Source: a virus (lineage: Duplodnaviria; Caudoviricetes). From it: 64,000 bases of DNA. Where the stretch lies: IMG/VR virus record IMGVR_UViG_3300029288_005873, positions 352,001 through 416,000 of that record; one strand, 5' to 3'. Under the pieces are notes generated by a model. It was given only the letters and a program-made list of their open reading frames with translations, had not been told where the DNA came from and did not search any database. Of this stretch, positions 22,729 to 64,000 are shown piece by piece; the stretch's first letter is position 1, and every line of letters begins with the position of its first letter. A program made the translations under genes and the position numbers.

Positions 22729-24006
22729 TTATTGCCAACCCTTTGGAGCCACGCGATCGGCAACTGCCAATAAGCGACGTAGATTATCAGGTTCCATTAC
22801 AGTGCCGTCTGGACGCAATATTGAACCATTGATATCCCAACCACGACGACCAATGATCTCGGCAGTCTCTGGATTTCCGCTAAAAACTGCGTCGAGCTTA
22901 TCTTCAAGACGACGGATTGCGTTCATGGTAGCAGTATCTAGTTTTCCACTATGTAAAGTACCAAAACCACGTTCAGATAGAAGCTCCTGAATTTCCGTTA
23001 TGCGATCGGGTCCAGGAAGTTCCTGCTTTACAGCCTGCGGCTTTTTTGCCTGGAATTTAGCCATTGCTTTATTAGCCACATTCGACAAAGCGTTTATGGA
23101 AAGTCTGGTATCCTCAAAAGTTTTTTTGAGGTCTGAAAATTTTTCATTCAGTCTAGACTTTGCTCCAAGCCCAAGTTTATACCATTCTTCAGGCATTGCA
23201 ACCATAGCCTCGACAATCGTAGAGGCTTGAGTCATGTCTGTTTCAAAGTTATCAAGCGCTGTACTGTATTTAGCAAGCCCAGCCTTATCATCTGGAAGCG
23301 GCATCGGTTGCCTAAATTTTGCAATATACGGTCCAAGGATTGATTGTAACTTATTCGCAAGACCAGCAAGCTCAGGTTTTTCGCCTACAGATGAAGCTGT
23401 ATCTAAAACATCCTGTATGTCGGTGGCAAGACCTTCACGCACGCTTGTAAGCTTTGACCCAAACCAATTCCATGCCCCAACGCCAAGTCCTCCCCACATC
23501 AGTAGCTTGGCTACAGGGGCTAATAGTGAAAGGAATGCCTCCTTATGGAGGCTATCGACGAAAGGGAAGGAAGCTAGCCTCTCAATGGTCAAATCGACCC
23601 TTGCCGCAGCTTCTGCCTTGCCTTCGCCTTCTAGATCATTTGCTAGCGAAACTAGGATCTCAACAAGGCTAGCATGTTTTCCAGTAAGCGCACCGGTCGG
23701 CATACATGTAGCAATCTCGATATCCTTATCCTGCTGTTGAACTATATTCTCGACAAGTGCTCCATCGCCCATAGATTCAGCTGGTTTAGCATCCTTTGGA
23801 TGCGCCTTACCAACAAGATCCTCGCCCGTCTCTTTAGTAACATTGTATTCTTTTCCAGGTTCATACCGTCTATGGTCCTTTACGGGCGTCTCCTTGTCGG
23901 TGTTTCCGACAACGGGTTTGCCGAGGTCCGAGACGATAAGGCCGCTTTCGGCGGCGATCTTGGCGAACTCGTCCATCACCAGGCTGCCGTTCCATTCTCT
24001 GCTCAT
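22729..24006 (-). CDS. Putative internal head/ejection protein (AHP module, helical tag, hydrophobic segment, PG-binding-like C-terminus)
   Basis: Modules shared with 25016..27802 and the scaffold; SGKLDTAT. Confidence 0.6.
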   Translation of the reverse strand: MSREWNGSLVMDEFAKIAAESGLIVSDLGKPVVGNTDKETPVKDHRRYEPGKEYNVTKETGEDLVGKAHPKDAKPAESMGDGALVENIVQQQDKDIEIATCMPTGALTGKHASLVEILVSLANDLEGEGKAEAAARVDLTIERLASFPFVDSLHKEAFLSLLAPVAKLLMWGGLGVGAWNWFGSKLTSVREGLATDIQDVLDTASSVGEKPELAGLANKLQSILGPYIAKFRQPMPLPDDKAGLAKYSTALDNFETDMTQASTIVEAMVAMPEEWYKLGLGAKSRLNEKFSDLKKTFEDTRLSINALSNVANKAMAKFQAKKPQAVKQELPGPDRITEIQELLSERGFGTLHSGKLDTATMNAIRRLEDKLDAVFSGNPETAEIIGRRGWDINGSILRPDGTVMEPDNLRRLLAVADRVAPKGWQ

Positions 24007-25013
24007 CTTGGTCCTCCAAATGCGCCTTCCAGCTCCTTCTCGGTTTGCGATTTTCGATCAGCTGGGGCTTCTTTCGTGTATGTTGCTTGCGGCAAAAGTA
24101 TCCTGGCCATTTCAGCCAGCGGGGGTGCCGCAAATGTCCTGTAACTATTTATTTCCTGGATTGGGGCACCACCATGCGCTGCGCCAACCTCGGTCAAAAC
24201 CCTTTTCATCTCTTTGGATCCTACCGGAGAATATCCCTTCAAATCGATAAAGATACGCGAAAAAGGTTTTCCTGCCCTATCCTTTATAGCATTATCAAGA
24301 GTCATAATTAGCGATCTCTCGACATTATTTGCTGTATTCATATAAAGACGCATACCCGGAGCCGATGGTGCTTGGTTACCTGATGTCTGAGACGTTGTCC
24401 CATTACCTATACCGACCATATTTAGCATAGCTCCAGTTCCAGCATGAAGACCAAAACCAATTATTACAGCTTTCAAAAGTTGGTACAATGCGCCGCTGAT
24501 TAGCCCTTTTGAAGCATATCCTCCCATTCCCATGAGAGATCGAAACTTTGAGGCAAGATTACCCGCAGCTTCTTTGCCAATATTATCTGAACCATGCGTC
24601 CAAGCTACAACTAAAGATTGTCTATCAATTGTGCCACGTTTCTCAAGCTCGGCGCGAAATGCGGACGATTTTCCCAATAATCCACCAACAAGACGATCTA
24701 CAATCCCGCCAGAGGCTGATTCTAAGGACGATTCCGATACTGGTCCAGTATTTCCACTCCCAGGTCCTTTACCTATTGCCCTATCTATCCAGGCACCTAT
24801 AGTACCAGCATCAACTCCAAGAACCTCCTTGGAAGCAGAAAATAGGAGGGATAGAATCCACCTTCCCTTAAGCATTAAAATCCCAGGAACAACATATTGG
24901 AGAAGTATCTCAAATGGACGCTCCTGAATCTGTCTAATGTTCCCGAACTCTTTGATCGCTTGCTGTACAAAGGTGTTCGCAATCCCTTGGAGGTCAAGAG
25001 CCTGTTTTTCCAT
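24003..25013 (-). CDS. Putative internal head/ejection protein with hydrophobic Gly-rich segments
   Basis: Position in the head cluster; KQA/KEA sites. Confidence 0.55.
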   Translation of the reverse strand: MEKQALDLQGIANTFVQQAIKEFGNIRQIQERPFEILLQYVVPGILMLKGRWILSLLFSASKEVLGVDAGTIGAWIDRAIGKGPGSGNTGPVSESSLESASGGIVDRLVGGLLGKSSAFRAELEKRGTIDRQSLVVAWTHGSDNIGKEAAGNLASKFRSLMGMGGYASKGLISGALYQLLKAVIIGFGLHAGTGAMLNMVGIGNGTTSQTSGNQAPSAPGMRLYMNTANNVERSLIMTLDNAIKDRAGKPFSRIFIDLKGYSPVGSKEMKRVLTEVGAAHGGAPIQEINSYRTFAAPPLAEMARILLPQATYTKEAPADRKSQTEKELEGAFGGPR

Positions 25014-25015
25014 GG

Positions 25016-27802
25016 CTACCGTCCCTTTGGAAGTGTCGTGTATATGTCGTGAATTTCGCCCTGCCTAAGGCGTAGTTCACTAAGTAGATCGTCCCTCATT
25101 GGCCTTGGAGCCCTCATTGTAGTATTTTGTAGCCGGGCGATCTCTTTACGCAGAAAATCTATTACCTCATGCGCAATAACATATGGTTCGCCTTCTCTTT
25201 TTGTCTTATCCCACCAATACCTCTGAGCCCATGACGCAAAAGCTGCTGGATCATTTGTGAATCCAGAAAGCTCTGGCAAATTATATACTTGGTCCTCCAA
25301 TGATGATTTGACTGGAGTCGATTCGTGACTATTACCATGTGTACCGTGTGCGCCTTCTAGTGTCCCAAATTCTCCAATACCACCATGCTGTTTACGCCCT
25401 TGTTCACTAGAGTCAGGCATACGATATGAAGGGATACCAGTACCTATTCCTCTTAACTGACCAATAAGTCGGTCCATAATTGCTGCCCGAGCCTGAACAT
25501 CTACACCTTCTTTGGCAAGTGCCCAGCTTTCATCACTATCGTCGCGCTCCAATGATTGCGCATATGCCTGTGCTAGCTTTAGTGCAATAGCTGCGTTCTC
25601 TTTTGGCGAGTTCTTGGCCGATATGCCGCTGTTCGGCTGAGCTGACAACGACTTGATAAAAGCTTGCGCATCAGAAAGACTCTTTTCCTGAACCTTTATT
25701 CCAGGTGCGATACTAACAGTAGCACGTGCAGAATAAAGCCGTCCAAGATGCTTTGCCATATTGAGAGCACCATTGATAGCCTGATCACTTGGACCATTGC
25801 CAGCTGGTGCGGGCGGTCGACCGATATCCCAACCAGGACCTTTGCGCTCTATAATTGCATTACGAAGAGCATTCCATGCATTCCATGTCTCAGAACCCCA
25901 TTTACCGTCAGCCTGATGCGACGGCAGAGGAATACCTGCCGACATCATAGCATTCTGTAGCTGCTGTAAATTTGGGCGTTGTTTCTTAGCTACGCCTTTG
26001 CCACGCGGAGCCGGTGCGCCTTTACTTGGAGTCTTGGCTGGAGCATTTCCTGGCACCGGCAGATCAAGCGGTCCAATAGGTGCGCCGGGGATTCCAACTG
26101 GGGGAGCAGCCTCACGTACAATTTTATCGTTTTTAATAGAAGCAAAAAGGTCAGCCAATTTCGGATTACCTTTTAAGGGTCTAAGATAGCTGTTCCACAG
26201 AATTTTGTTGTATTCGTTTAGTGTACCCCTTTCAGAAAGGGAAGTTGGCTCTTTTTGTTGGCGCAATTTCTTCAGCCAATCTATTGTCTCGTTCAACTTT
26301 CCCTTAAGCATACGGTTTGCTTCAGTTTCCTTTACTGGATCCGGAAGTGCTTTAACAAGCCCATTTAGAAGCATATCGACAGTGCCAAGGTATCGTTTAT
26401 GCGAAAGCTTTAGCACATCACGAAGCTGTTTTTCGTATGCCTGCTCTTTTGGCGATGTATCGTGAAACCACTCTGGATGCTGTTGTTCAGCAATAGTCAA
26501 ATTGGCTTTGATTCCACGCAAATATGCCCCAATCATAAGCATAGTCCCAGAAGGAGCACCAGCCCGAAGCGACTGCTCAATCTCTGGAAATTCCTTATCC
26601 AATGCTGCCGTAACTTTAGCTTCAGTCTTTGTACTATTATCGCGCTGAGCATTATACAGATCGCGCTGATAGTTTTTCAGCTTTGCTATTGTTTCAGCTT
26701 TGTTGCGAACATATTCTGGCTCGTGTTGAGCCCAATCATTTATTTTTTCACGTAACGCATCTATGAGGGCGACTATCCCCCATAGTGCTACTTTAACGAC
26801 GAAAGGGCGGGGGGAGCCCTCCCTCAACTCGTCGAGTGTCTTATCGACAAGCAGGGCGGCCTCCGTCTTACCCTCGGCATCCAGCCTGTTGGCCAAAGCT
26901 ACAAGCTGCTGTGCCACAAAAACAGCTTGTTTGCCTGTAGGTTTTGTCTCCACCACCTTTATGTCTCTTTTCTGCTGCTCGACCACAGTCTCTACTTTAC
27001 CGCCCTCTTCTTTAGCGGGAGCCATAGTTGGTCCGCCGCCAGGATGAGCCTCACCAATAAGCTGTTCTCCAGTTTCACCAGTAATATCATATAGCTTATC
27101 AATAGCCTCTTTATAGATCCTAAGCTGCTCGTCTACTGCCTCTGCAATTTTTGTCTCGCCCATGTCGTCGAGGTCGTTGGCAAGCGACACAAGTTCGGTA
27201 ACTATAGCCGAGGCTTTGGGCGCAAGTTCTTTTATTGTAGGGTACTGCCATGGCTGTGTCATGTGAGGCTCCTTGATCAGTTCCAATGGCGCAGAGGGTT
27301 CCTTTGGAATTTCCTCCTTAACTGCTGCTGGGGCAGGTATGCGCCTTTTCTGAGCAATGTCTGTGAGAAACGACAATATATTCATGAGTGTGTTAACATT
27401 TGGACGTACACTCGTAAGTCGTGAGACAAGGTCTGTCAAATTTTGTTGCCCTAAAACAAGAGCTATTTCGGAAAGAGTTGTAAGTGTCTTGGGTCCCCAT
27501 TTTCCATCCACACCATTAGGAGCGGATTTTGTAGCCAACGCAGCTCTGAATCGTGGAGCTATACTGGACATGATCCCTTGGATCTGCTTAACAAGACCCT
27601 CGACATATTCACCAGATTGCTCGGAGACTCTCTCTTCAGAATTTGATTGATCCTGATTATTAATCATATGCTCAGGTATATGCTCTGGCTCTGGAGCAAA
27701 TGTTGGCTCTTGGGCGGAATGCTTTACCATCCATCCTTTTTCGGCAGCTATGGCCTCAAACTCGCGCATAACTGCACTCTCGCCTTGTCTCATGTGACGC
27801 AT
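25016..27802 (-). CDS. Large putative internal head protein with two peptidoglycan-binding-like domains
   Basis: VDGKWGPKT and ADGKWGSET (PG_binding_1-like); two helical tags; AHP module. Confidence 0.65.
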   Translation of the reverse strand: MRHMRQGESAVMREFEAIAAEKGWMVKHSAQEPTFAPEPEHIPEHMINNQDQSNSEERVSEQSGEYVEGLVKQIQGIMSSIAPRFRAALATKSAPNGVDGKWGPKTLTTLSEIALVLGQQNLTDLVSRLTSVRPNVNTLMNILSFLTDIAQKRRIPAPAAVKEEIPKEPSAPLELIKEPHMTQPWQYPTIKELAPKASAIVTELVSLANDLDDMGETKIAEAVDEQLRIYKEAIDKLYDITGETGEQLIGEAHPGGGPTMAPAKEEGGKVETVVEQQKRDIKVVETKPTGKQAVFVAQQLVALANRLDAEGKTEAALLVDKTLDELREGSPRPFVVKVALWGIVALIDALREKINDWAQHEPEYVRNKAETIAKLKNYQRDLYNAQRDNSTKTEAKVTAALDKEFPEIEQSLRAGAPSGTMLMIGAYLRGIKANLTIAEQQHPEWFHDTSPKEQAYEKQLRDVLKLSHKRYLGTVDMLLNGLVKALPDPVKETEANRMLKGKLNETIDWLKKLRQQKEPTSLSERGTLNEYNKILWNSYLRPLKGNPKLADLFASIKNDKIVREAAPPVGIPGAPIGPLDLPVPGNAPAKTPSKGAPAPRGKGVAKKQRPNLQQLQNAMMSAGIPLPSHQADGKWGSETWNAWNALRNAIIERKGPGWDIGRPPAPAGNGPSDQAINGALNMAKHLGRLYSARATVSIAPGIKVQEKSLSDAQAFIKSLSAQPNSGISAKNSPKENAAIALKLAQAYAQSLERDDSDESWALAKEGVDVQARAAIMDRLIGQLRGIGTGIPSYRMPDSSEQGRKQHGGIGEFGTLEGAHGTHGNSHESTPVKSSLEDQVYNLPELSGFTNDPAAFASWAQRYWWDKTKREGEPYVIAHEVIDFLRKEIARLQNTTMRAPRPMRDDLLSELRLRQGEIHDIYTTLPKGR

Positions 27803-28866: not shown

Positions 28867-29652
28867 TTACTTGCTTTTTGAGGTTAGCGGTCCACTTTTT
28901 CCAGGACCATGTTCAGGACCCGGCTCATCCAGATATTTCTTGTCGACTTTATCCAAAGCTGTACGGATGGCATATTCTTCAGCCTTGTCACCCTTAAGAC
29001 CCTTGTCCTTCTTAGCGGTCTCTAAAGCACTTTTGTAGGTCTTAGAGAACTTTTCCCCTTCTTTCTTACTCTTTTTGTTGAGGAAAGATACCCACTCAGA
29101 ATGGCTACGACCCTTCTTGGCCTTCTTCTTCGCTTCGGCAACAATTGGACGCTGACCAGAAAGTTTCTGAAGTGCCTCGTCGAGTACCTGCGCAACCTTC
29201 GTAAAACCAACCCTGTCAAGAGCATCAGCCAGCTTTACTACATGTCCGATGGCAAAATCTATAGCAATCGCCAAACCAGCATCTGCGCACTGCGGGCATC
29301 CGTCCTCAGCCTCAACATGTTCTGGGCATCCATCTTCAGCTTTCTGGGGCACAGACTCAAGAGCTGCTTGTTTGTCCTCAGAATATTCAATCATCGGCGT
29401 GAAATCATTGTGCTCTTTGCCGAGCGCAGTTGCGCCTTCAGAACCCGCAGCCAGCCATTTGTTGTGAATAGCTGCCGCCTCTGGCTGAGTTTTTGCAGCA
29501 TCCATTTCCGCCTTAAAAGCCTGCGACGCAGGTCCTTTTGTCCACCATGCGTCTTCTGCCTTTTTGTATAGTCCAACAAAATCCTCGTCTTTAAGCTTGG
29601 CATTAAAGGCTGAAGCAATCTCGTCTGAGCAATAATGCTTGAGTGTGGTCAT
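28867..29652 (-). CDS. Putative internal head protein (start revised to MTTLKH)
   Basis: SDEI N-motif, helical tag, Lys-rich C-terminus. Confidence 0.6.
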   Translation of the reverse strand: MTTLKHYCSDEIASAFNAKLKDEDFVGLYKKAEDAWWTKGPASQAFKAEMDAAKTQPEAAAIHNKWLAAGSEGATALGKEHNDFTPMIEYSEDKQAALESVPQKAEDGCPEHVEAEDGCPQCADAGLAIAIDFAIGHVVKLADALDRVGFTKVAQVLDEALQKLSGQRPIVAEAKKKAKKGRSHSEWVSFLNKKSKKEGEKFSKTYKSALETAKKDKGLKGDKAEEYAIRTALDKVDKKYLDEPGPEHGPGKSGPLTSKSK

Positions 29653-29677
29653 CTCACCAGTCCTCCATTGGGTTTCT

Positions 29678-30139
29678 TTACATTGACGGCTTGAAAGTCG
29701 GGCATTTTGCCAGACAGTCAAGCCGAGCCCTCATGAAGGAATCCTCAGCCTCCAGAAAGGGCGCAAAACGCTTATACACGCCATTTACCGCCTGGCAATC
29801 CCCAGGCTCAATTCCTTTGAGAGCTTCAGTAAAATCGTCATACGCAGACGCCGATTTTACTATAGTAAACAGAGCTGGAAGATTGCCAAGTTGCCTAATA
29901 GCACTATCCAGCATGTCGGCAACCGCTGTAAATCCAGCCGAATCCATATTGTCCGACAACTTGACCAAATATTCGCCTACTTGGCTCAAAGCTTGCCCGA
30001 TTTTAGTATTTGCTTGTTTGGCAGCAAATTCAAAAGCCAAGGCTAACCTATCTTCTTGTACCTTATCGGTAGAACTAGGGAAGCCTAGCCTTTCAGCCAT
30101 CGCAGCAGTGATCTCGTCAGAAACACATGATTGGCTCAT
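29678..30139 (-). CDS. Putative internal head protein, paralog of the next gene (start revised to MSQSCV)
   Basis: SDEI N-motif; LVKLSDNMDSAGFTAVADMLD tag; ATGA coupling. Confidence 0.6.
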   Translation of the reverse strand: MSQSCVSDEITAAMAERLGFPSSTDKVQEDRLALAFEFAAKQANTKIGQALSQVGEYLVKLSDNMDSAGFTAVADMLDSAIRQLGNLPALFTIVKSASAYDDFTEALKGIEPGDCQAVNGVYKRFAPFLEAEDSFMRARLDCLAKCPTFKPSM

Positions 30140-30371: not shown

Positions 30372-33300
30372 CTACTTCCTTCTAGGTACCCAAAGGCGGT
30401 TAAGCTGATCGGGAAGATCTACCCTCTCTGGCTCTTCCTCTCTAATGCCAACCTGTACCGCTGATTCGGACTTAGAAGCGGTCTTTACCGTACCAGTCGT
30501 ACGGGACAGTGCGCGTTTGAAAGCCTCAAAAGAAGGCTCGTCAAACTTCATGATGTCATCGACCTGCTTGTTCATGACGTCACGTCCCCTGCTAATAAGA
30601 CCCTTCTCCTGCATGTCAAGTGCCAGGTCAACGGCGCGACGAAGCTTCAGTCTATAAGACTCTGCTTCAGCAGCTGCCTTCTTCTGGGCAAATTCCTTAG
30701 TCAGGTCCTGACCAAACTGCTTGCTCGCCGGATCGCCCTCGCCGAAATACTGTTTCCAATACTTCGCAGCTTCTGGGTCAACAGCTAGCGCCTTCAGCTT
30801 AGCATCATCAGACAGGTCGGCTACCGAAAGCTTACCAGACTTGAGCAAATCACCTAGCTTAGCAGCAGCTTCGCGAACCTTCGGCAAGGTCTCGACCTGC
30901 CTCATAATTTTTGCTTTAATCTCGTCGATTCCCTCGACATGCGCACCCTCGTCGGAGGGCTTGGTGTCAAGATTTCCAAGAGTCGTGCCGCGCTGCGGAT
31001 GCGCCTTGGGAACCATATCGGTATCCATATCAGTCGCTGGCTCCAGCTTCAGCTGATACTTGGAACCGATTTCGGCTGCGATCTTCTCGCGCCTTGCGCG
31101 CCTGCTGGCAACATCGGAAATCTTGGGTTCAGCAACTGGTTCCTCAGCAGGCTTTTCCTCATCTAGCTGACCGAGCAGTTCTGCCACCAAACGCTCCTCG
31201 TCGTCGCCCGCATCGGCATACTGTACACCGTCATCGCCGTCATTGAGTTCCTTCATGTCGATATCCTCAAGCTCTTCAACCAGACCCTCAATTTCCTCGT
31301 GGATCTCGTGCTCCTTCTCCTCCATATCTTTCTCTTTCTCATCAATCGCAAGGCGAACAAGTTCGCGCCTCTTTGCAGCACGAGCCTTCAGCATCTTCTC
31401 CAGGACTAGTTCGGCTTCGGACTTCTTCTCTTTCTTGTCCTTCTTGTCCTCTTTGCCGTCACCCTCATCTTCATCCTCTTTATCTTCTTTATCTTCCTTC
31501 TCTTTCTTACCCTTCTTATCTTTCTTGTCGCCCTTCTTATCCTCTTTATCTTCCTTCTCATCTTCCTTCTTATCCTTCTTCTCTTTCTTGTCCTTCTTTC
31601 CTTCCTTCTCCTCAAGAGCCTTCTTTAGCCCTTCTGGCATACCTTTCTTAGCTTCAATGACCAAAGCCGCTTCGCGACGAATCTCAGCATTTGCCTCAAG
31701 CGATTCAGCAGCTAGCTTCAGCAGCTCATCCATCTCAGCCCCAGAAACTAGCCCAGCTTCAATCCTCTTTCCGAGCACCTCAGAAAGGATAGCAAGCTCG
31801 TCACCACTGTCATCAAGTTCGGCACAAATGACAGAAGCGGTCTTGGTCTCGCCATCACCAACCTCGATTGGGGGAAGTTCTTCCTTTCCACCCTCACCAG
31901 TCTTGCCCTCTTCCTTGAGGATCTCCTTCAGATCGCCGAAGGCCTTTTCAGTCTCAGCAAGAGCTTCCTCGACCCTATTTGTGGTCGCCTCTGCTCCAGG
32001 CTTCTCCTCATCCTTTGGCGGTTCAATCGGAGGCATAGGTCCAGCAGGTGGAACCGGAGGCTCTGCTGCCGTAACCGTTTTACCAGTGAGGATATATGTC
32101 GTCTTTTCGAGACCATTGTTCCTGATCTCTGCCATAATACGCTTACCATAGTCCTCAGACTTCAGGTGATTCCAATAGTCCTCACGAGCAAGGTCCTCGC
32201 CATAGATTTCATCCCCAGTGGCGCTAAGAACGAGCTTATCACCAGCGTATACATCCCAATGGGCTTTCTGTCTATCGGGGGATCCAGACTTGGTACGCGG
32301 GAATTTGAACTCGGCGCGAAGCAGCTTCTGCTTCAGGGCAAGGTCATTACCAGCAAGACCGTCGTTTCCTGGCTCCATTCCCTCGCCTACCATCTGCTTA
32401 TCCTGTGTATCACGGATCTTATCCGAGTCCTCTTTCGGATAGGTTTGCGGCTCATTTACACCACCGCCTCCCTGGAAATATGCCATCGACTCGAGACCCT
32501 CGTCTTCGACAGCCTGGACAACAGGCTTACCATCTGGTCCCTTGGTTACAGAAACCTTGGTACCATCCTTCAATGTAAAGGTCTCAGCCTCGCCCTTGAC
32601 AAGCAACGCATGTCGGCGAAGTCGGCGCTCCTCTAGCTGAGCACGAGACAGCTTCTGCTTGATGGCGAGGTCGTTACCAGCAAGACCATCGCTACCAGGC
32701 TCCATTCCCTCGCCTACCATCTGCTTATCCTGTGTATCACGGATCTTATCCGAGTCCTCTTTCGGATACACCTGCGGGTCGTTCACTCCGCCTCCACCCT
32801 GGTGGTAAGCGTTCTTCTCGAATGCCGCGCGACGGGCGCGAGCCCTTTCCTTCAGATCGGACATGTTCTTTTCCTCCTTCTGTGGTGTCCTGTTTGCTGC
32901 CGCCTGGATGCTCAGGAGAGCGCCATGCATGTCGTCAAGTCTGCTCGACACTGCCGCAATCTGCGCCTCCAGGCTTCCGCTGGCAAGACGGGTCTCTCGC
33001 CCGTCAAGGGACCATGGGGGAGGTCCGCTGGACTCCGGATCCTCCGTATATGTCTGTCCACGACCCCCCGTCATATTCTTATTTCCTGCAAGCCCGTAGG
33101 GCGGCTCTACTTCTCCGCCTTCAGGGTTGTCCTCAACATGTTCAACTTCTTTTCCTTCAACATTTGATCCATCTTCAGCCGCTGGCGTTTCAAGCTTGGT
33201 TAGTTCTTCAGGCGTCATATTTCCGCCAAGCATTTCCTCCAATCTCTTGTTAGCCTTATTCTTTACGTCGGCAGATACATTCGGCGCATTTAGCAGGTCA

Positions 33301-41521: not shown

Positions 41522-41529
41522 GCGCACCC

Positions 41530-41842: not shown

Positions 41843-41865
41843 ATGCTGTATTATTGATAGGTTTT
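41843..41865 (-). promoter_or_regulatory. Putative late promoter motif, copy 5 (overlaps the stop of the upstream gene)
   Basis: AAAACC TATCAATA ATACA GCAT. Confidence 0.7.
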
Positions 41866-53517: not shown

Positions 53518-56500
53518 TTATTTACCGGGACCGCCCAAAGGTGCCCCAGGACCGCCTGGACCCAATGGTGGTGTCATACCACCAGTGGAAGGAGCTCCAG
53601 CTCCTCCAGGACCGCCCAAAGCTTCACCAGGAGGTGGTGCTAACTCAGGAAGCCCACCGGGCAAACTCCCTCCGCCACCAATTGGTGGCATTCCACCAGG
53701 TGCTCCTAAACCGCCTGCTGGAGGCATACCAGCCTCCATTCCAGGCATACCTGCACTCATTCCGCCAGCAGGCTGTTCGGAAATAATAGGCTCCATGATC
53801 TCGCGCGTTGGGTCAAGAGCGCGAAGCTCGATAAGCGACATGCCCGCAAGAGCCTGTTCTTCTCTTTGACGTATTGCATCATTAACAGACTCTGCGCGCA
53901 TCTTCTCACGCTCGTCCTCATAATTCAAACCAAGACTCTTATACAAGGTCTGTAGTGAAGCTTGTTTAGCTGTCACAAGACTAGAGATGTTACCGATGTA
54001 GTCCTGTAGATCATACAGGTTCATCTGGTTCCATTCTACCTCTGGCACTATTAGCTTTTTGTATCCACCTTCTGCCCTATAGTATCCACGCAAATCACTA
54101 ATTGGCGCAAATATCTTGTTCATCAACCAACGTGCTAACATATTGCGAAAATTGAAATACCTCTGGCGTAACACCTCAAGTCCAATAGACGCAGAGGCAT
54201 ATACCGCGCTCTCTGTATCAATTACCGCCTGCGGAACCATTAGACCATGCATAATATTCTTGATGATTAGTTCATTATCCTGCGAAATATCAATAATACC
54301 ACCTTGTGCGCCAACGCGCTCAATTGAAACACCAGCATGAGTTACGATTTTGAAATTCTTATCATATTGAGCTTCTTCAATTATCTGACGCCACGTTTCA
54401 ATTGCCTCCGGATCTGGATGGTACTCGCCCTCCCCAGCTCCACCAATTTTAACCAAGGTAATAGGATTTACCATGTCATCAGCCTGGGCAAATTTACATT
54501 CTCTTAATTTGTCGTAAAGCATCAGGTCTTTGAATACGGACACAATAACGCTTGTGCCACGTACATCATACGGGCTGGACAACATCTTTAGATGTGATAC
54601 GTTGAAATTGTCCAATGGAATGTTTTCACCCCTGCGCACATGGTATACGATATTCTGGGGAATCTGTTTGCGCAGTTGGACGTCGGCTGGAGCGTTACTC
54701 ATAACAAGACGCTGGAGAACAGCATCAGGACGCATGGAAATGATTGGTTCGCTTGCAATAACCATCTTTTTCACATGGATGTAATCGGGATTCTGAACAA
54801 CAATCCTTCTCCATTTTAGACCATTTTCATCAAGTTCAGCATATGGGAAGGCTTCGCCAAGTTTCCAGAATTCAAGAGATATATCACCAAGGGCGCCGAG
54901 AAGATCCATCTCCTCGATCATGTCCTCGAACTCCTGCTGAACCTTTTTGTCAGAGCATTTAATGTTGATCTTAGAGATCGGATAGGTCGCATGAAGCGTA
55001 ATCGCATTACGAACAAGGGGGTGTAAATCAAAAAAATTTCTACAGTTACGAACACTTACACCATATCCTACCGTATAAGTATGGTCCGTTTCAACTTCAA
55101 TATTATGGACAATACCAACATATTGACGATACTCAATAGTGTTGACCCATTGAATGGCTTTGTCTTTATAAAAAAAACAACACCCATCTCGTTTATGTGA
55201 ACGTTTAATGGTAGCAAATCTGTAGAAATTTGACACAAAGCATTCAGCCAATTTCAATGCCGATTTTCCACGAATTTTAACATAGTAACGAGGGTGTACT
55301 TCATATGTTTTACCATTGCTTGGTGATACCATAGTTTTTTGACTATGTTCCCGAAACACATGTGCCACTAACCCACATCGCAGACACAGCATCCTCATTT
55401 GCCAGGCAAGATTTTCAGAAGAAGTATTGCCACAGAAAATGCCGCCGTTATATTTCTCTTGTCCACCATCGCCGTCCAGCCAAGCAACCAGAAATCTGAG
55501 TAACAGTCCAGGTTCTACCGACATAAGCTCGAACGACAGGCGTTTTGTCAATGATCCCTTGCCACAATGCCGAAGGACAAATTTTGCTAGGTTAGCGTCG
55601 GTACAATTTACATATATCTCAGTTTTCCTATCTGGGCGCACATATACCTTTGCCTCAGAAGACAATCGTACAGCAAGTTCCTGTATCCTATAGGCTAACT
55701 TCTCTTCATGGGCGCCTAAGGAGAAAGTTACTGTATTGTGTGAAATTGATCCCTCAGCTGCGTAGTACCCCAGCAATTCCAATGCCTCTGGATTCTCAAG
55801 CAAAGGATCGTCGGAAACTGGTTCCAATTTCGGAACGGGCATATATAGCGCATCTCGCGCTTCTAGTTTACCTGCTTCGATTTTTCCGAATACATAAGGA
55901 TCATCCTGTCTTTTACAACGAGAACAGAAACACTCTTGTCCATCAGGTTTACATTTCACATATGTCGTATGATCGTGACAGCGGACTTCGTCACCTTTGA
56001 CAGCGTTAAAGTTGTGATTTTTAGTACACCAAATAGTCTCTTGTGAACCTTTTATACGAATGCCGACAATCTCCTCATTAATAGGACGTTGAAATACTGT
56101 CGTTACACGACGAGGAACTCCCGCTCCAGACAGAACCATATCACCAACTTCGATTTCCTCAATAGATTTACGAGTTCCATCTGCCATCCATACCATTGTT
56201 CCTGGAATAAAACACCAAGCATTAACAGTAATTCTATCACGTGGCAGGTTTAAGTTTGCCATAGTAAACAGTGGCGAATAGACCTCAGGCGCAAGGCGTT
56301 CAACAGGAGCGCCTGCGGATGAGCCTAGACCGCTGCTTAGAGTGGAAGCTTGTTTTCTGAAGGATGGACTGTGAGCTATTGCTCCATGTAGACCTGCTTG
56401 CTGCTTTCCCCCACCAGAGACCACACCTCCTGGCATCCAGGTGCCGCGATTTACGTCTTTTTCTGAATCATATGGCGGCGGTGGTTCCGTTACACCACGA

Positions 56501-56679
56501 CGAAGCAGGCTTCCAGAGAGTTGTGCTGTTTCCTTGAGGTTTCCTCTCTCGATTTCATCCTGAAGAACACCTCTCCTGACGGAGGATACCGACTGAGCCA
56601 ATTTAGGAGACGTGCGAATTGACACTGGTCCCGCTGGCGTCTGCGCTACTCCCCTCGCCATCCTTCTGCTGTCTGACAT
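53518..56679 (-). CDS. Portal protein containing an intein
   Basis: Directly follows the terminase; HPLVRNAI..H...P, EFWKLGEAF, YDVRGTS; Gly/Pro-rich tail. Confidence 0.85.
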   Translation of the reverse strand: MSDSRRMARGVAQTPAGPVSIRTSPKLAQSVSSVRRGVLQDEIERGNLKETAQLSGSLLRRGVTEPPPPYDSEKDVNRGTWMPGGVVSGGGKQQAGLHGAIAHSPSFRKQASTLSSGLGSSAGAPVERLAPEVYSPLFTMANLNLPRDRITVNAWCFIPGTMVWMADGTRKSIEEIEVGDMVLSGAGVPRRVTTVFQRPINEEIVGIRIKGSQETIWCTKNHNFNAVKGDEVRCHDHTTYVKCKPDGQECFCSRCKRQDDPYVFGKIEAGKLEARDALYMPVPKLEPVSDDPLLENPEALELLGYYAAEGSISHNTVTFSLGAHEEKLAYRIQELAVRLSSEAKVYVRPDRKTEIYVNCTDANLAKFVLRHCGKGSLTKRLSFELMSVEPGLLLRFLVAWLDGDGGQEKYNGGIFCGNTSSENLAWQMRMLCLRCGLVAHVFREHSQKTMVSPSNGKTYEVHPRYYVKIRGKSALKLAECFVSNFYRFATIKRSHKRDGCCFFYKDKAIQWVNTIEYRQYVGIVHNIEVETDHTYTVGYGVSVRNCRNFFDLHPLVRNAITLHATYPISKINIKCSDKKVQQEFEDMIEEMDLLGALGDISLEFWKLGEAFPYAELDENGLKWRRIVVQNPDYIHVKKMVIASEPIISMRPDAVLQRLVMSNAPADVQLRKQIPQNIVYHVRRGENIPLDNFNVSHLKMLSSPYDVRGTSVIVSVFKDLMLYDKLRECKFAQADDMVNPITLVKIGGAGEGEYHPDPEAIETWRQIIEEAQYDKNFKIVTHAGVSIERVGAQGGIIDISQDNELIIKNIMHGLMVPQAVIDTESAVYASASIGLEVLRQRYFNFRNMLARWLMNKIFAPISDLRGYYRAEGGYKKLIVPEVEWNQMNLYDLQDYIGNISSLVTAKQASLQTLYKSLGLNYEDEREKMRAESVNDAIRQREEQALAGMSLIELRALDPTREIMEPIISEQPAGGMSAGMPGMEAGMPPAGGLGAPGGMPPIGGGGSLPGGLPELAPPPGEALGGPGGAGAPSTGGMTPPLGPGGPGAPLGGPGK
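55045..56214 (-). mobile_element. Intein (390 aa) with LAGLIDADG endonuclease in the portal gene
   Basis: W|CFIPGT start, CTKNH block B, LLGYYAAEG and FLVAWLDGDG, VHNIEVETDHTY...VRN|C end. Confidence 0.92.
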
Positions 56680-56691: not shown

Positions 56692-58521
56692 TCATCTCAT
56701 ACGCGGAACATAGGCGAGGACGGGTTTTGCGGCGGTCTTGGCTGCTGCTGTGCCCGGACCTGCCTTGAACCCGTGCGTTTGCTCAAACTTATATGCGACG
56801 AAAGCATTGATGAGAGCCATCAGCCCGTCGTTCTGAACCTTTCCTTTCACATACATGGTGTGCGGCATTCCCTGCCGTATGGTTTGTTTACTCTCCATTG
56901 AGCAACAATGGTCTACCAACCAAGCTATACGCTCATAACTTCCCCAAGGAAAACGTATGGCACCTCGGCGCAGAAGAGCAAACATATCACTAATCCATTT
57001 ATCCTTATCGATAACTATCTCTAATTCATCCTCACGATATTTTGTACCAGTCAAAACCTGACCAGAGTTGCGTACCGTCTTAAATCTATCGCCAAGAATA
57101 GATTTTAATTTTCCAGAAATATCCTCGGCATAACCGACGTCTCCAGCGGCTATCCTGACATTAAATAGCCGATACATTTCTTCAACAAATTGTATCTTCG
57201 AATCCATATCAAGTTTCTTGAGTTTTTGTGCAAACTCTATTACAATACGCCCATCATGTTCGACCGAAATAACGACCGCGCAAGAGAAGGACTGTCCGCG
57301 CGTAACACCATCAATATCTGGTCTACCACCCCAGTCAATACCCATATAGACCATTTTCTTCTGGTCTTTGGTAATCTGTTTTGTCATCGGACGCATAGGA
57401 TCACGACAAGCTTTGTAAATCTCTTCGCGAGTGATGGGTAGACCTGTACCAGAATGGAATTCTCCTAGTACCTCATTATTCCAATCAATCTCCCTCTTCA
57501 TAGGATTGTGTTCTGGAGATTCTTTAAGGATAACCTCTTTGTGAAACTCTGGGATAAACAACTGGTTAAAATGAAAACCAACGTAGGTGGCGTCCTCTTT
57601 TCCAGGCGTCGCTAACCATTTTCCACGTTCAATAGCTTCAACCTTATCCTGTTCACGACCGCAGTTTGGACACTTCACTACATTTTCATATAGCCAAATA
57701 TCCTTCTCCCATTTGTCGGAACCAGGAGTATACAAAAGAAAATAACGCTGACATTCTACACATCCGAGATAATACCTGCGTTGATCGGAATTCTCCCACA
57801 TTTTATAGAATTCCGAATTCTTATGTTCTGGAGTACCGAAATAAACCTGTACACCACCAGGCTGTGTACCATACTGAGCACGTGTTAAACACTTAACGGC
57901 TGTGTCAATAGCCTGCTTGGTCATTAGCTGAGCTTCATCAAAAAAGATGACATCAATGGTTCGACCGCGTACTCTGATACCCTCATTACCTATAGAGTCG
58001 CACCAAAGAGTATTACCATACCTAAATTGTTTATATGTTAGGCTGTCAGAAGCTTCGCGAGTAGTGTCTTTTCTTGTTTCGATATATGGGCGCAGAATCT
58101 GCTTTTGGCTATTCTCATCTGGAACCATAATGGATTCGCGAATCATCTTTTCCAATTTATCTTTGGAGAAGGCATGCATAAGTTCCAACTGTGGAAACGC
58201 ATGCATGACACGAATCGGACGAGAACCCCCCTGCCCAAACATACCGCCAGCAACCATGTCGAGTTCAAGAACAGACGCCATGGTTGTGGCACCGACCTGA
58301 CGCCCTTTGACAATCACAACAGGTTTGCCATTGGGTGAAATAGCCGTTGTCATGATGTATCGGTAGATATCAGCGATAAACTTCCATCCATTCCCTGTAA
58401 GTTGTAGAGGTTTCCCGTCAAGGGTGAGATAAGATTCGGCAAAATACACGGGATCCAGATGAAGCAACTCGCGCTTCAGTTCCTCGAAACTCCTGTCTGG
58501 TCCCCATGCTTTGTTTACCAT
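56692..58521 (-). CDS. terL: Terminase large subunit (lambda gpA-like)
   Basis: KGRQVGAT (Walker A), VIFFDE (Walker B), GTP coupling motif, SDQRRY...CVEC...CPNC, GIDWG nuclease motif. Confidence 0.92.
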   Translation of the reverse strand: MVNKAWGPDRSFEELKRELLHLDPVYFAESYLTLDGKPLQLTGNGWKFIADIYRYIMTTAISPNGKPVVIVKGRQVGATTMASVLELDMVAGGMFGQGGSRPIRVMHAFPQLELMHAFSKDKLEKMIRESIMVPDENSQKQILRPYIETRKDTTREASDSLTYKQFRYGNTLWCDSIGNEGIRVRGRTIDVIFFDEAQLMTKQAIDTAVKCLTRAQYGTQPGGVQVYFGTPEHKNSEFYKMWENSDQRRYYLGCVECQRYFLLYTPGSDKWEKDIWLYENVVKCPNCGREQDKVEAIERGKWLATPGKEDATYVGFHFNQLFIPEFHKEVILKESPEHNPMKREIDWNNEVLGEFHSGTGLPITREEIYKACRDPMRPMTKQITKDQKKMVYMGIDWGGRPDIDGVTRGQSFSCAVVISVEHDGRIVIEFAQKLKKLDMDSKIQFVEEMYRLFNVRIAAGDVGYAEDISGKLKSILGDRFKTVRNSGQVLTGTKYREDELEIVIDKDKWISDMFALLRRGAIRFPWGSYERIAWLVDHCCSMESKQTIRQGMPHTMYVKGKVQNDGLMALINAFVAYKFEQTHGFKAGPGTAAAKTAAKPVLAYVPRMR

Positions 58522-62080: not shown

Positions 62081-62087
62081 TCTAACC

Positions 62088-62858
62088 TCAACAGTCCAAA
62101 AGATGCTGTACCATACGATGTTTGGCCATTTCCATAGACATAAGCCTACTTAGCGGAATTATCGGAAGGAGCTTATATTCCGACAAAAGACTTATGGCTT
62201 TCTTGGCATCTATGCGAAACATCTGGTGTACTTGGCGGCGTACATGTCCAGAAGGCAGCTGTCCGACGGCACCACGATATTTCAACATGGCTTGACCAAG
62301 GTCGTCATCTATTTCAAAACCAAACCGAAGCGATAACTTTATAGCTCGCAATATTCTCCTAGCATCATGACCTATCGTCAGGTCTGGATCAACTGGTGTA
62401 CGTAAACGCCGTGCTCCAATATCAGCGGCAGCCAAGCCCGTCGGATCATCAGGTTTTCTGCCCAAATCCATGGGCTGAAGAAGAGTATTTGCTGTAAAAT
62501 CCCTAGAAAACATCTCCTTCTGAAGATCGCTTGGTTTCTCAATACCGCGTTTCCCAAGTTCTACATCTATACCAGGTAGCACAAAATTATTGGAAAAATC
62601 CATCCTTATATTCTGAAATGCCAAAGATGAATGTCCATCATCATAGGAACGAAAAGGAGCATCAGGCCATTGTTTACTTGCCAAAAGTGCCAATGCAAAG
62701 CAATCCCTGTCACCAGTTGTTATGTCTATATCTTCAACCTGCGCCGAAACTAATCCTAAAGCTCTATCCCTTGGAAAACCACCAACCACAAAAGGCTTGG
62801 AAAGCCCAGAACTTTCCGCGAGATTGCTTAGCGTTCCAAGCAGTTCCTCAAGCCTCAT
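62088..62858 (-). CDS. CCA-adding enzyme / poly(A) polymerase family nucleotidyltransferase
   Basis: VVGGFPRD, EDIDI, RDFTAN and DARRILRA motifs of class II RNA nucleotidyltransferases. Confidence 0.9.
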   Translation of the reverse strand: MRLEELLGTLSNLAESSGLSKPFVVGGFPRDRALGLVSAQVEDIDITTGDRDCFALALLASKQWPDAPFRSYDDGHSSLAFQNIRMDFSNNFVLPGIDVELGKRGIEKPSDLQKEMFSRDFTANTLLQPMDLGRKPDDPTGLAAADIGARRLRTPVDPDLTIGHDARRILRAIKLSLRFGFEIDDDLGQAMLKYRGAVGQLPSGHVRRQVHQMFRIDAKKAISLLSEYKLLPIIPLSRLMSMEMAKHRMVQHLLDC

Positions 62859-62860
62859 CT

Positions 62861-64000
62861 TTATACTCCTTGTGGCGTTTTGGCTGGTAGCTGTTCTTTA
62901 ACTTCAGTCGCAGTCTCCTCAGCTGGAGCTGGAGGCAAAGAAGGCTTGCCCTTTTCTGTGGACTGTTCCGTAGGCTGTTCGGCTGGTTTTTCAGAAACAC
63001 TAGCTGCCGTTTCTTCTGCTGAAGGACCCATATCTACACTTGGTGCCTTCTTTTCCTGCTTATCACTTTCATCACGCAGACCACCGCGCAATTTCCCTAT
63101 AATTTTCTCGAGTCTAGTGCCCACATATGAGTCGGTCTCCAGCAAACGTCCTATGGCTTCACCCAATTCTGGAAAATAAGAAACAATGTTACGACTATCC
63201 ATCATCATATCAACTTTGGAAAGTTGACGCACCGTTTCACGTTCCTTGAACCGTTTCACAATTGGCTCAAGAGTATTGATTATATCCATGATGGTCGATC
63301 CAGCAAACGGATTTTCATCCTTAGGAGAGGAATTTTCTGTTTCTGGTTCAGGTTTAGGCTCTGGAGGTGGAGGCGGTTCAGGAAGACTTTCCATTGCTCC
63401 TGGAGGCATTCCTTCAGGAGCAGCATTTGCGTCTGGAGATGCCGACGGTTCATCAGGCATTGGGGAGGGACTACCCAAATCCTCAGAAGGGGGTGTAGAA
63501 GGCAAATCTGTAGTTCCCGAGGGTTTAATTTCGTATTCATGACCTGTAAGAGCTTTTTCAATTTGGCTAGCTATATCCTGACCAGGTTCCTGTGCTATCT
63601 TAAGCAGGGTTTCTGCTCCATCATGAAACCCTTCCCTTGTCCACAATCCTGCGGTTCTTATAATCCTATCTCGCATAGATGAAGCTGTTCTCAAACCAGT
63701 AATTTCCTGTTCTAGATCAGACAGTGCTCTATATATGCTATTCCAACGTTCTTGTGACCACACTGGCGGCACGAAAAGACGTAAAAGCTTTTTAGCAGAA
63801 TCGAGCCTACCAATAAGGGATTTTCTATTTTCTTCTATAGAGCGTTCTTCTGGTTTTCGCCTAACACGAGTTAGAGGAACCTCAACTTGTTGTCCAACGG
63901 GAGGTTGCTGGACAGCAGCATATTTCTCATGGTCGCCGCGCTCATAATACCTGAGCCATTGTTGGAAATCTGTTATCTCCACAGGATCCCACTCCTCAGT
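62861..64000 (-). CDS. Hypothetical protein, probably 5'-truncated by the window edge
   Basis: Frame stays open from the tracked GTG (63982) to 64000; Pro/Glu-rich; degenerate helical tag. Confidence 0.65.
   Translation of the reverse strand, partial: TEEWDPVEITDFQQWLRYYERGDHEKYAAVQQPPVGQQVEVPLTRVRRKPEERSIEENRKSLIGRLDSAKKLLRLFVPPVWSQERWNSIYRALSDLEQEITGLRTASSMRDRIIRTAGLWTREGFHDGAETLLKIAQEPGQDIASQIEKALTGHEYEIKPSGTTDLPSTPPSEDLGSPSPMPDEPSASPDANAAPEGMPPGAMESLPEPPPPPEPKPEPETENSSPKDENPFAGSTIMDIINTLEPIVKRFKERETVRQLSKVDMMMDSRNIVSYFPELGEAIGRLLETDSYVGTRLEKIIGKLRGGLRDESDKQEKKAPSVDMGPSAEETAASVSEKPAEQPTEQSTEKGKPSLPPAPAEETATEVKEQLPAKTPQGV

What the first reader, a model, noticed from the sequence alone, without database searches (positions are those of the whole stretch)
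22729..63700. A ~25-aa helical tag (LAxxLDxxGxxxxAxxxD) shared by about ten otherwise unrelated proteins: candidate capsid-targeting signal
Seen: LVSLANDLEGEGKAEAAARVD (22729); LVSLANDLDDMGETKIAEAVD and LVALANRLDAEGKTEAALLVD (25016); VVKLADALDRVGFTKVAQVLD (28867); LVKLSDNMDSAGFTAVADMLD (29678); LMRLADEFDKRGLLREADFVD (35165); LTVLAQALEVLGEADSA (38908); MVGVADELDRKGMLHFAD and LGKVAALLERKGEIVLADRLD (40811); IAAMAQMLDDAGLYDDAAIMD (51880); LVRLANWLDDNGLRAEAEEID (58525); degenerate copies in 27804 and 62861. It was not seen in the tail/fibre or nuclease genes, and it is often bracketed by [KR]xA sites. Inference: a portable helix-turn-helix docking module that recruits proteins to the prohead core, analogous to the T4 capsid targeting sequence or encapsulin targeting peptides.
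Basis: partly seen in the sequence, partly recalled or inferred. Interest (0 to 1): 0.88.

Follow-up and report, generated by a model that had tools for sequence, protein, structure and literature searches.

The report
Portable helical-hairpin tag on megaphage proteins
A 442-kb uncultured phage and its relatives attach the same small two-helix module of about 35 residues to dozens of otherwise unrelated proteins, including proteins at fixed positions among the head-assembly genes. It is most likely a docking tag for building or loading the capsid, but nothing yet shows what it binds.

Summary
The motif is real. An HMM built only from metagenomic copies scores 12 copies in 10 ORFs of this genome at 22-45 bits (shuffled maximum 3.9). 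Seven of those ORFs are in the window: 22729, 25016 (x2), 28867, 29678, 35165, 40811 and 58525. ORF 51880 is marginal. ORFs 38908, 27804 and 62861 are not supported.

The module folds as a confident helix-turn-helix hairpin (pLDDT 85-88). It has no Pfam, PHROG or PDB family.

It is widespread: 799 cluster representatives in 1.84 billion proteins. Wherever context is visible, it lies in a huge-phage clade related to Bacillus phage G. It is absent from phage G itself and from three further MCP relatives. Its commonest core is absent from 596 Gb of cellular genomes.

Relatives carry arrays of up to 12 small genes that start with the tag at residue 1 and share nothing else (0 of 117 pairs). Tagged genes recur upstream of TerL, after the portal and after the prohead protease (the scaffold slot). 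Other arrays lie 85-100 kb from the head genes.

Capsid docking is the best reading (about 0.45) but is unproven. This scan flagged similar hairpin tags in related genomes before (e1-5358066, e1-5841558).

The parts
23566..23679 (-). hairpin tag, internal, in 425-aa ORF 22729-24006 (two genes upstream of MCP; followed by a hydrophobic segment)
   Evidence: 29.6 bits with the independent HMM; 22.2 bits leave-one-out
27104..27217 (-). hairpin tag, copy 1 of 928-aa ORF 25016-27802
   Evidence: 45.2 bits; 24.8 bits leave-one-out; conserved in homologs P0007, P0011, P0013, P0019, P0020
26813..26923 (-). hairpin tag, copy 2 of 928-aa ORF 25016-27802
   Evidence: 42.0 bits; 21.8 bits leave-one-out
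29158..29244 (-). hairpin tag in 284-aa ORF 28867-29721 (second gene after the protease; Lys-rich C-terminus)
   Evidence: 31.3 bits; 24.7 bits leave-one-out
29885..29986 (-). hairpin tag in 177-aa ORF 29678-30211 (first gene after the protease, the scaffold slot)
   Evidence: 32.7 bits; 23.7 bits leave-one-out; syntenic slot holds tagged or degenerate-hairpin proteins in L016, L013, G002, G003
35630..35719 (-). hairpin tag near the N-terminus of 202-aa ORF 35165-35773 (Cys-rich C-terminal part)
   Evidence: 27.6 bits, although only 10.1 bits leave-one-out; BLAST matches to array tags of L006, L008, L015
41246..41341 (-). hairpin tag, copy 1 of ORF 40811-41728
   Evidence: 22.7 bits; the independent HMM includes its homolog P0006, so independence is only partial; 3.9 bits leave-one-out
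41117..41188 (-). weaker hairpin, copy 2 of ORF 40811-41728
   Evidence: 12.1 bits
58840..58920 (-). hairpin tag in 225-aa ORF 58525-59202, directly upstream of TerL
   Evidence: 33.8 bits; 17.4 bits leave-one-out; the same slot holds N-terminally tagged proteins in L022, L034, L035
53035..53130 (-). marginal hairpin-like N-terminus of 422-aa ORF 51880-53148
   Evidence: 7.9 bits and 10.9 bits: at noise level
30372..34241 (-). 1289-aa prohead protease with a long C-terminal (scaffold-like) extension; context
   Evidence: phrog_18299 head maturation protease; N-terminus 34% identical to phage G gp19
20770..21795 (-). major capsid protein; context
   Evidence: phrog_2522, E=3e-75; 52% identical to phage G gp27
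53518..56679 (-). portal protein (1053 aa); context
   Evidence: phrog_16240, E=1e-50
56692..58521 (-). large terminase; context
   Evidence: phrog_675, E=2e-57

Best explanation
The motif is a self-contained antiparallel two-helix hairpin of about 35 residues, shaped like a single TPR unit. Its consensus is roughly LvKLANxLDxKGxxKEADxLDxIIKKxA. A clade of huge phages fuses it to the N-terminus, the C-terminus or flexible internal linkers of many unrelated proteins.

Inferred mechanism: it is an assembly/docking module. Hairpins on 'client' proteins associate with a common partner in the assembling head. That partner is either hairpins of the small protein encoded right after the prohead protease, which carries the hairpin at both ends in some relatives and would act as a bivalent scaffold or cross-linker, or a surface of the capsid/scaffold lattice. 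Clients would thereby be built into or loaded into the prohead. The frequent K-x-A at the tag's edges may let the head protease release them.

Shown: the module, its fold prediction, its portability, its clade restriction and its recurrent head-module slots. Inferred: the binding partner, encapsidation and any cleavage.
For: (1) The motif is real and significant: 12 copies in 10 ORFs at 22-45 bits against a shuffled maximum of 3.9, and leave-one-out recovers 7-8 proteins.
(2) Eight of the 10 carriers lie in 43 kb (about 10% of the genome) spanning TerL, portal, protease and MCP. Binomial p is about 3e-7 by my arithmetic.
(3) AF2 on the two-ended family (alignment A4) gives two hairpins at pLDDT 85-88 joined by a disordered acidic linker.
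(4) The slots are conserved in relatives with MCP 68-76% identical. A tagged protein sits directly upstream of TerL (window 58525; L022, L034, L035). One sits shortly after the portal (G002, G003). One sits directly after the protease: L016 has a 184-aa protein with the tag at both ends, the window has 29678 and 28867, and L013, G002 and G003 have orthologs ending in two degenerate hairpins.
(5) The tag is portable. Arrays of 6-12 small genes begin with the tag at residue 1, and 0 of 117 pairs are related outside it. One tag pair is 96% identical in DNA while the downstream genes are unrelated.
(6) There is no copy in tail or replication genes of the window.
(7) [KR]xA is enriched at the tag edges, 18% and 45% against 1.7%. 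Hydrophobic-x-K-x-A has O/E 1.72 in head-block proteins against 1.21 elsewhere, and IVKYA is conserved in the MCP N-arm of the clade.
(8) Precedents: the 10-residue T4 CTS loads foreign proteins and is cut off by gp21 (PMC9026906), and the P22 scaffold binds coat through a 36-residue C-terminal helix-turn-helix (PMC9962691).
Against: There are no virion or prohead data for any tag-bearing phage. Phage G, the only cultured relative, has no tag in 497 kb (positive control).

In relatives most copies are far from the head genes. The G002 and G003 arrays lie 85-100 kb from portal and MCP. G001 has 21 copies scattered over 223 kb. They sit beside ligase, lipase/esterase, PG-binding, anti-restriction, GroEL and RNR genes.

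Part of the window's 'head block' (ligase-domain protein and neighbours) looks like an insertion that relatives keep elsewhere. This weakens location as evidence for carriers 35165, 40811 and 51880.

The largest putative cargo proteins of the block (1268, 1377, 698, 576 and 489 aa) lack the tag. The tag is acidic, unlike the basic P22 scaffold hairpin. K-x-A also occurs inside the tag. Within-genome tag identity barely exceeds between-genome identity (0.50 against 0.45), so there is no sign of genome-specific co-evolution with a receptor. The scaffold-slot orthologs of the closest relatives score 12 bits or less.
Confidence: 0.45

Rival explanations
1. It is a general hetero-oligomerisation or hub-binding hairpin unrelated to the capsid. 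Solitary TPR-like hairpins on many proteins would bind each other, or one phage-encoded hub (a chaperone, a compartment or condensate protein, or a membrane complex). This would organise an intracellular phage assembly, and the head-module copies would be only a subset of its clients.
For: Tags are scattered across whole genomes: 21 in G001 and 7-11 on other partial contigs. They lie next to GroEL, RNR/PhoH, ligase, lipase and anti-restriction genes. They occur at any position and in 1-3 copies. Two-ended proteins look like bivalent linkers. The tag is conserved across genomes with no genome-specific drift.
Against: The tag is strongly concentrated in the head block in this genome. Tagged slots are conserved beside TerL, portal and protease across the clade. 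No hub candidate was identified.
Confidence: 0.3
2. It is a shared N-terminal targeting or adaptor domain of host-takeover or anti-defence effectors. The hairpin would bind a host factor, or direct small variable proteins to the envelope, and the variable C-terminal parts would be the effectors.
For: Arrays consist of small, fast-diverging, domain-less proteins with a constant N-terminal module. The L006 array lies near an anti-restriction gene. The L015 array is interleaved with lipase/esterase and PG-binding genes. ORFs 22729 and 25016 have hydrophobic segments directly after the tag.
Against: This does not explain the tags on scaffold-slot, TerL-adjacent and portal-adjacent proteins, nor the C-terminal and internal copies. 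It also overlaps with the best explanation, because injected head cargo can itself be anti-defence, as with T4 IPI (own knowledge).
Confidence: 0.12
3. It is an ordinary member of the TPR or another catalogued helical-repeat family, or merely a paralogous family or compositional artefact, with no special tag role.
For: The spacing of small and hydrophobic residues (L-A-x-x-L ... G ... A) resembles a TPR unit. The best PDB sequence hits are designed TPR proteins (E=0.11). Two of the 111 top hits are true TPR/NB-ARC proteins. ORFs 22729 and 25016 are paralogs.
Against: No Pfam TPR or other family hits any carrier, and 109 of 111 hits have none. Copies are solitary or separated by long linkers, not tandem arrays. 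With the tag masked, 0 of 117 array pairs and all but one window pair are unrelated. Shuffled controls reach only 3.9 bits. Foldseek finds only generic hairpins at E>=1.
Confidence: 0.05

Closest known systems
Capsid targeting sequence (CTS) of phage T4 internal proteins IPI-III and Alt (Mullaney & Black 1996; reviewed in PMC9026906)
   Same: It is a short shared N-terminal element on otherwise unrelated, poorly conserved proteins. It is portable. The genes that carry it are scattered in the genome. It is often followed by a motif that could be a head-protease site.
   Different: The CTS is about 10 unstructured or amphipathic residues, strictly N-terminal and removed at [LI]xE by gp21. The present module is a folded hairpin of about 35 residues with no sequence similarity to the CTS. 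It also occurs at C-termini, internally and in 2-3 copies. Neither packaging nor cleavage has been shown for it. The phage lineage is HK97/phage-G-like, not T4-like.
C-terminal helix-turn-helix coat-binding domain of the phage P22 scaffolding protein (residues 268-303; PMC9962691), and its engineered use to load cargo into P22 VLPs
   Same: The size and architecture match: two helices joined by a tight turn, about 36 aa. In some relatives the module occurs at the termini of the protein in the scaffold gene position. Fusing such a hairpin to a foreign protein is known to be enough for encapsidation.
   Different: There is no sequence similarity. The P22 hairpin is basic and present once, on the scaffold only. 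The present module is acidic (three conserved Asp) and is naturally spread over 10-30 proteins per genome.
Staphylococcal phage 80alpha scaffold and SaPI1 CpmB, which share a C-terminal capsid-binding motif (PMC5644958; the detail is from my own knowledge of that paper)
   Same: It is a natural case of a scaffold's capsid-binding end being copied onto a different protein so that it docks inside the procapsid.
   Different: It involves a single hijacker protein and a short helix-and-hook, not a folded hairpin family on dozens of proteins.
Tetratricopeptide (TPR) repeat unit
   Same: It has helix A-turn-helix B geometry and the same spacing of small and hydrophobic positions. Weak sequence echoes to designed TPRs were found.
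   Different: Copies are solitary, not tandem. No Pfam TPR model matches. The conserved Asp triad and the LD..G turn are not TPR features.
Encapsulin cargo-loading peptides (own knowledge)
   Same: It is a short portable tag that addresses diverse cargo to the interior of an HK97-fold shell.
   Different: Encapsulin tags are C-terminal extended peptides of about 10 residues with a different motif. Here the shell is a phage capsid with portal, protease and terminase.

Membership tests
T4-type capsid targeting sequence | About 10-residue element at the extreme N-terminus of the carrier | tested here: not met
   The module is about 35 aa. In the window most copies are internal. In relatives many start at residue 1, but others are C-terminal or internal.
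T4-type capsid targeting sequence | Removed by the prohead protease at its consensus site after assembly | not testable with these tools
   K-x-A is enriched at the tag edges and hydrophobic-x-K-x-A has O/E 1.72 in the head block. No cleavage data exist.
T4-type capsid targeting sequence | Sufficient to load a protein into the prohead | not testable with these tools
   No cultured tag-bearing phage exists. Phage G lacks the tag.
P22-type scaffold coat-binding helix-turn-helix | Helix-turn-helix of about 36 residues | tested here: met
   The AF2 model has helices 2-16 and 19-35, and the same arrangement at the C-terminus, at pLDDT 85-88.
P22-type scaffold coat-binding helix-turn-helix | Located at the C-terminus of the scaffolding protein | tested here: inconclusive
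   The gene after the protease carries it at both ends in L016. In L013, G002 and G003 that gene ends in two degenerate hairpins, and the hairpin is internal in window ORFs 29678 and 28867. None of these is proven to be the scaffold. The protease protein's own C-terminal extension may be the scaffold, and it lacks the tag.
P22-type scaffold coat-binding helix-turn-helix | Sequence or profile homology, with a basic coat-binding face | tested here: not met
   There is no PDB sequence hit to any scaffold and no significant Foldseek hit. The conserved residues are acidic.
TPR repeat (Pfam clan) | Match to a curated TPR model at its threshold | tested here: not met
   None of the 10 window carriers matches. 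Two of 111 profile hits are true TPR proteins, and the other 109 have no such match.
TPR repeat (Pfam clan) | Tandem arrays of at least 3 adjacent units | tested here: not met
   Proteins carry 1-3 copies separated by tens to hundreds of residues.

The most novel reading that the evidence does not exclude
A clade of huge phages uses one folded hairpin as a plug-and-play address code. The scaffold-position protein carries the hairpin at its ends. Any protein given the same hairpin, at either end or in a linker, co-assembles with it through hairpin-hairpin (TPR-like) stacking and is loaded into the capsid, then released at flanking K-x-A sites. This would make hundreds of unrelated small proteins (at least 799 sequence clusters) injectable cargo that is swapped by recombination at the tag.
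Probability: 0.3. Interest if true: 0.8.

Novelty: new variant of a known kind. Interest (0 to 1): 0.62.

Why it matters
If the hairpin is a head-loading or assembly tag, it would identify at a stroke the packaged or ejected proteome of a large uncultured huge-phage clade: 10-30 proteins per genome and hundreds of families, almost all without known function. It would also show a folded, position-independent alternative to the T4 CTS. And it would give a natural, compact tag for loading cargo into HK97-fold shells.

Even if the partner is not the capsid, the module would still be an uncatalogued, clade-specific protein-interaction module that deserves a family definition. No Pfam, PHROG or PDB family matches it, and none of the database members I looked up carries a functional name.

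Tried and rejected
- Megablast of 10 kb of the window against cultured phages found no match.
- Pfam and PHROGs on the carriers gave nothing beyond one weak tape-measure hit.
- Alignments A1 and A3 were too degenerate for pattern scans.
- The 928-aa protein found no viral relatives by pattern scan.
- tblastn of a three-tag protein against cultured phages found no match. Its sensitivity for a 30-aa motif is low.
- The single-sequence AF2 model of the genome's own two-copy protein had pLDDT 44.7 and was unusable.
- Foldseek against PDB and BFVD returned only generic hairpins at E>=1.
- The protein Atlas returned only weak 'hypothetical, viral' clusters.
- Genome-specific co-evolution of tags was rejected: identity is 0.50 within genomes and 0.45 between.
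- The MCP N-terminal extension as tag receptor remains only a weak lead. Five genomes have both and three have neither, but the partial Rctr197k genome has the extension and no tag.
- The 'paralog family' reading was rejected by masked all-vs-all comparison.
- Pfam on the array cargo parts and on conserved head proteins gave nothing useful.
- A literature search for motif strings found nothing relevant.

Full report
SETTING

The window is bases 352001-416000 of a 441,904-bp IMG/VR virus record judged complete. All long ORFs are on the minus strand.

PHROG scans place a head-morphogenesis block here:
- TerL at 56692-58521.
- Portal at 53518-56679.
- A 1289-aa protein with an N-terminal prohead-protease domain at 30372-34241.
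- MCP at 20770-21795.
- Tail genes below about 20 kb.

The nearest cultured phage is Bacillus phage G, whose MCP gp27 is 52% identical.

IS THE MOTIF REAL?

A loose regex found 12 hits in 10 minus-strand ORFs of the window. Genome-wide it found further copies at 16.9 kb and 417 kb.

Scoring seeds with an HMM built from them is circular, so I ran two controls.

Control 1 used leave-one-protein-out HMMs. Seven proteins were recovered at 22-29 bits and 58525 at 17 bits, against a best non-seed score of about 11 bits. ORFs 35165 and 51880 fell at noise level. ORFs 38908 and 40811 failed.

Control 2 used an HMM built only from about 200 metagenomic copies. It scores 12 copies in 10 ORFs at 21.8-45.2 bits. 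The shuffled-ORF maximum is 3.9 bits and real-ORF noise is about 8 bits. This HMM rescues 35165 (27.6 bits) and 40811 (22.7 bits, though its homolog P0006 is in the training set). It also reveals a C-terminal copy at genome 258595-259023. ORF 51880 stays marginal (7.9 bits). ORFs 38908, 27804 and 62861 get no support.

With the tag masked, only 22729 and 25016 are related to each other (E=2e-9). No copy lies in the tail region.

Eight of the 10 carriers lie within 43 kb, about 10% of the genome. By my arithmetic the binomial p is about 3e-7, with the caveat that neighbouring genes are not placed independently.

WHAT THE MODULE IS

The aligned copies (A1) have invariant Gly and Ala and near-invariant Ala and Asp. 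The broader consensus is about 35 residues: hydrophobic-x-x-L-A-x-x-L-D-x-x-G, then x-x-x-A-D-x-x-D-x-hydrophobic-hydrophobic-K-K-x-A.

AlphaFold2 on a small family with the tag at both ends (A4) predicts helix 2-16, a two-residue turn and helix 19-35. The C-terminal copy has the same arrangement. Both score pLDDT 85-88, and the acidic middle is disordered.

No curated family matches:
- Pfam and PHROGs have no family for any carrier.
- The PDB sequence search gives only designed TPR proteins at E=0.11.
- Foldseek gives generic hairpins at E>=1.

So the module is a solitary TPR-like helical hairpin that belongs to no catalogued family.

DISTRIBUTION

The A1 profile, run against 1.84 billion cluster representatives, finds 799 proteins at E<=1e-3 and 41 at E<=1e-10. 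Most have 2-3 copies. Lengths run from 57 to 1399 aa, and the tag occurs at any position with an excess at the N-terminus.

Only 2 of the 111 top hits are true TPR/NB-ARC proteins, and the rest have essentially no Pfam domain. Twenty cluster look-ups and a word-based search returned only metagenome records with no functional name.

A pattern scan of IMG/VR gave 19 loci. Wherever head genes are visible they belong to the window's lineage:
- MCP is 68-76% identical.
- Portal is about 50-62% identical.
- TerL falls in phrog_675.

L021 may be an exception, because its TerL hits phrog_2 best.

The tag is absent from phage G across all 497 kb. A positive control on the window's own genome recovered all 13 seeds. 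It is also absent from three more distant MCP relatives of 485, 197 and 309 kb.

A degenerate DNA pattern for the commonest tag core gave 4 matches in 596 Gb of species-representative cellular genomes. All 4 are chance matches that lack the second helix. The same pattern gave 6 matches in viral contigs, and all 6 are full tags scoring 37-56 bits.

ANATOMY IN RELATIVES

L006, from a 223-kb contig, has 12 nearly consecutive small genes that each begin with the tag at residue 1. L008 has 7 such genes, and L015 and L012 have 6 each. Outside the tag, 0 of 117 possible pairs are related.

At the DNA level, one pair of tags is 96% identical over 99 nt although the downstream genes are unrelated. The other tags are 62-79% identical, and the repeat unit starts at the ATG. 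The tag is thus a mobile module and not the remnant of a paralogous family.

Tag identity is 0.50 within genomes and 0.45 between genomes, so there is no marked genome-specific drift.

LINK TO THE HEAD MACHINERY

Synteny with L016, L013, G002, G003, L034, L035, L012 and L022 shows three recurrent slots.

Slot (a) is the gene directly upstream of TerL. It is window ORF 58525, and it is N-terminally tagged in L022, L034 and L035. The G002 ortholog has no tag.

Slot (b) is a gene of about 185 aa shortly after the portal in G002 and G003.

Slot (c) is the gene or genes directly after the protease and before a strongly conserved 231-aa protein, the 28162 homolog. L016 has a 184-aa protein there with the tag at both ends. 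The window has ORFs 29678 and 28867. L013, G002 and G003 have orthologs that end in two degenerate hairpins scoring 12 bits or less.

Slot (c) is the classical scaffold position. However, the C-terminal 1000 residues of the protease protein could be the real scaffold, and that region has no tag.

EVIDENCE THAT CUTS THE OTHER WAY

In G002 and G003 the large arrays lie 85-100 kb from portal and MCP, and G001 has 21 copies scattered over its 223 kb. Their neighbours include an ATP-dependent DNA ligase, lipase/esterase genes, PG-binding endolysin-like genes, an anti-restriction gene, GroEL and RNR/PhoH.

In the window, a ligase-domain protein and its neighbours sit between portal and protease. In G002 and G003 those two genes are only about 5 kb apart. 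Part of the window's 'head block' is therefore probably an insertion, and location is weak evidence for carriers 35165, 40811 and 51880.

The largest proteins of the block lack the tag.

THE [KR]xA CLAIM

Across 290 copies, [KR]xA begins at motif columns 0-1 in about 18% and at columns 33-36 in about 45%, against a 1.7% background. It also occurs inside the tag, as KLA and KEA at 42% each.

Hydrophobic-x-K-x-A has O/E 1.72 in the head-block proteins, 1.29 in the tail genes and 1.21 in the rest of the genome. IVKYA is conserved in the MCP N-arm of all five clade members examined.

This fits earlier scan notes that propose a Lys-x-Ala protease code in this lineage (e1-5319450, e1-5841558). It remains suggestive only.

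INTERPRETATION

The module is shown to be a portable, folded, clade-restricted hairpin.

Its most likely role is docking or assembly in the head (confidence about 0.45). This rests on the conserved head-module slots, the two-ended protein in the scaffold position, and the N-terminal tag-plus-K-x-A layout of the arrays. That layout parallels the T4 CTS (PMC9026906). The hairpin architecture parallels the P22 scaffold coat-binding domain (PMC9962691).

A solitary TPR-like hairpin is unlikely to be stable alone. Hairpin-hairpin association between tagged proteins, or with a lattice surface, is therefore a reasonable inference, but it is an inference only.

The main rival is a general hub-binding or oligomerisation module that is not specific to the capsid (about 0.3). 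The genome-wide scatter of tags in relatives favours it.

NOVELTY

I found no paper, Pfam or PHROG family, or functional database name for the module among those I searched. As a kind, portable capsid-addressing tags are known. This one would be a new variant: folded, position-independent, multi-copy and acidic.

The same scan has flagged similar hairpin tags in related genomes (e1-5358066, e1-5841558). One dissenting note (e1-5380336) read its own case as paralogs. That reading is rejected here by the masked comparisons.

Noticed in passing
window 35734-37203, 37200-38930, 41851-43947 (minus strand); also genome 254538-258200 and 249507-249776: A second short motif, Pro-[I/L/F]-Ser-Lys-Arg-Ala, occurs 8 times in the genome's six-frame ORFs, against a rough chance expectation of 0.1. 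Five copies are in three large tag-less head-block proteins, at an N-terminus, 12 residues from a C-terminus and at internal positions. It is not found in the relatives' loci I hold, nor in the first 50 kb of phage G. It could be a linker, a protease site or a second docking peptide.
   Followed up: partly
window 22729-24006, 25016-27802 and the C-terminal part of 30372-34241 (minus strand): A shared element of '...[K/E]-A-H-P', then about 20 residues, then an acidic/aliphatic helix, is present in the two paralogous tagged proteins and in the C-terminal region of the protease protein. It is conserved at the C-terminal ends of the homologs in L013, G002 and G003. Its function is unknown.
   Followed up: no
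window 22729-24006, 25016-27802, 27804-28217 (minus strand): These three ORFs share an N-terminal 'V-M-x-E-F-x-K-I-A-A-E-x-G'-type helix. ORFs 28867 and 29678 share a 'C-x-S-D-E-I' N-terminal stretch.
   Followed up: no
window 20770-21795 (MCP), N-terminal ~45 residues: MCPs of all five tag-bearing clade members have a conserved N-terminal extension containing IVKYA. Phage G, LR745208.1 and Tunturi_5 lack both the extension and the tag. The partial Rctr197k genome has a related extension but no tag. This is a weak lead for a tag receptor or propeptide.
   Followed up: partly
window 48074-51880, 43944-48077, 41851-43947 (minus strand): Very large proteins with ligase-like domains (ATP-dependent DNA ligase phrog_114; RNA-ligase-like) sit between portal and protease. 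In G002 and G003 the ligase gene lies about 10 kb from the distal tag arrays instead. This suggests a block rearrangement into the head module in this genome.
   Followed up: partly
window 19676-20656 and 53518-56679 (minus strand): A LAGLIDADG homing-endonuclease gene lies directly downstream of the MCP gene. The portal protein has an N-terminal extension of about 540 residues before the portal domain.
   Followed up: no
L006:9423-9521 and L006:10345-10443: Two tag-coding segments are 96% identical in DNA although the rest of the two genes is unrelated. This is a recent tag duplication or gene conversion.
   Followed up: partly
L010:6038-9811: A 1258-aa PhoH-like ORF carries extra segments that hit terminase, primase and HNH families. 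It is probably intein-containing.
   Followed up: no
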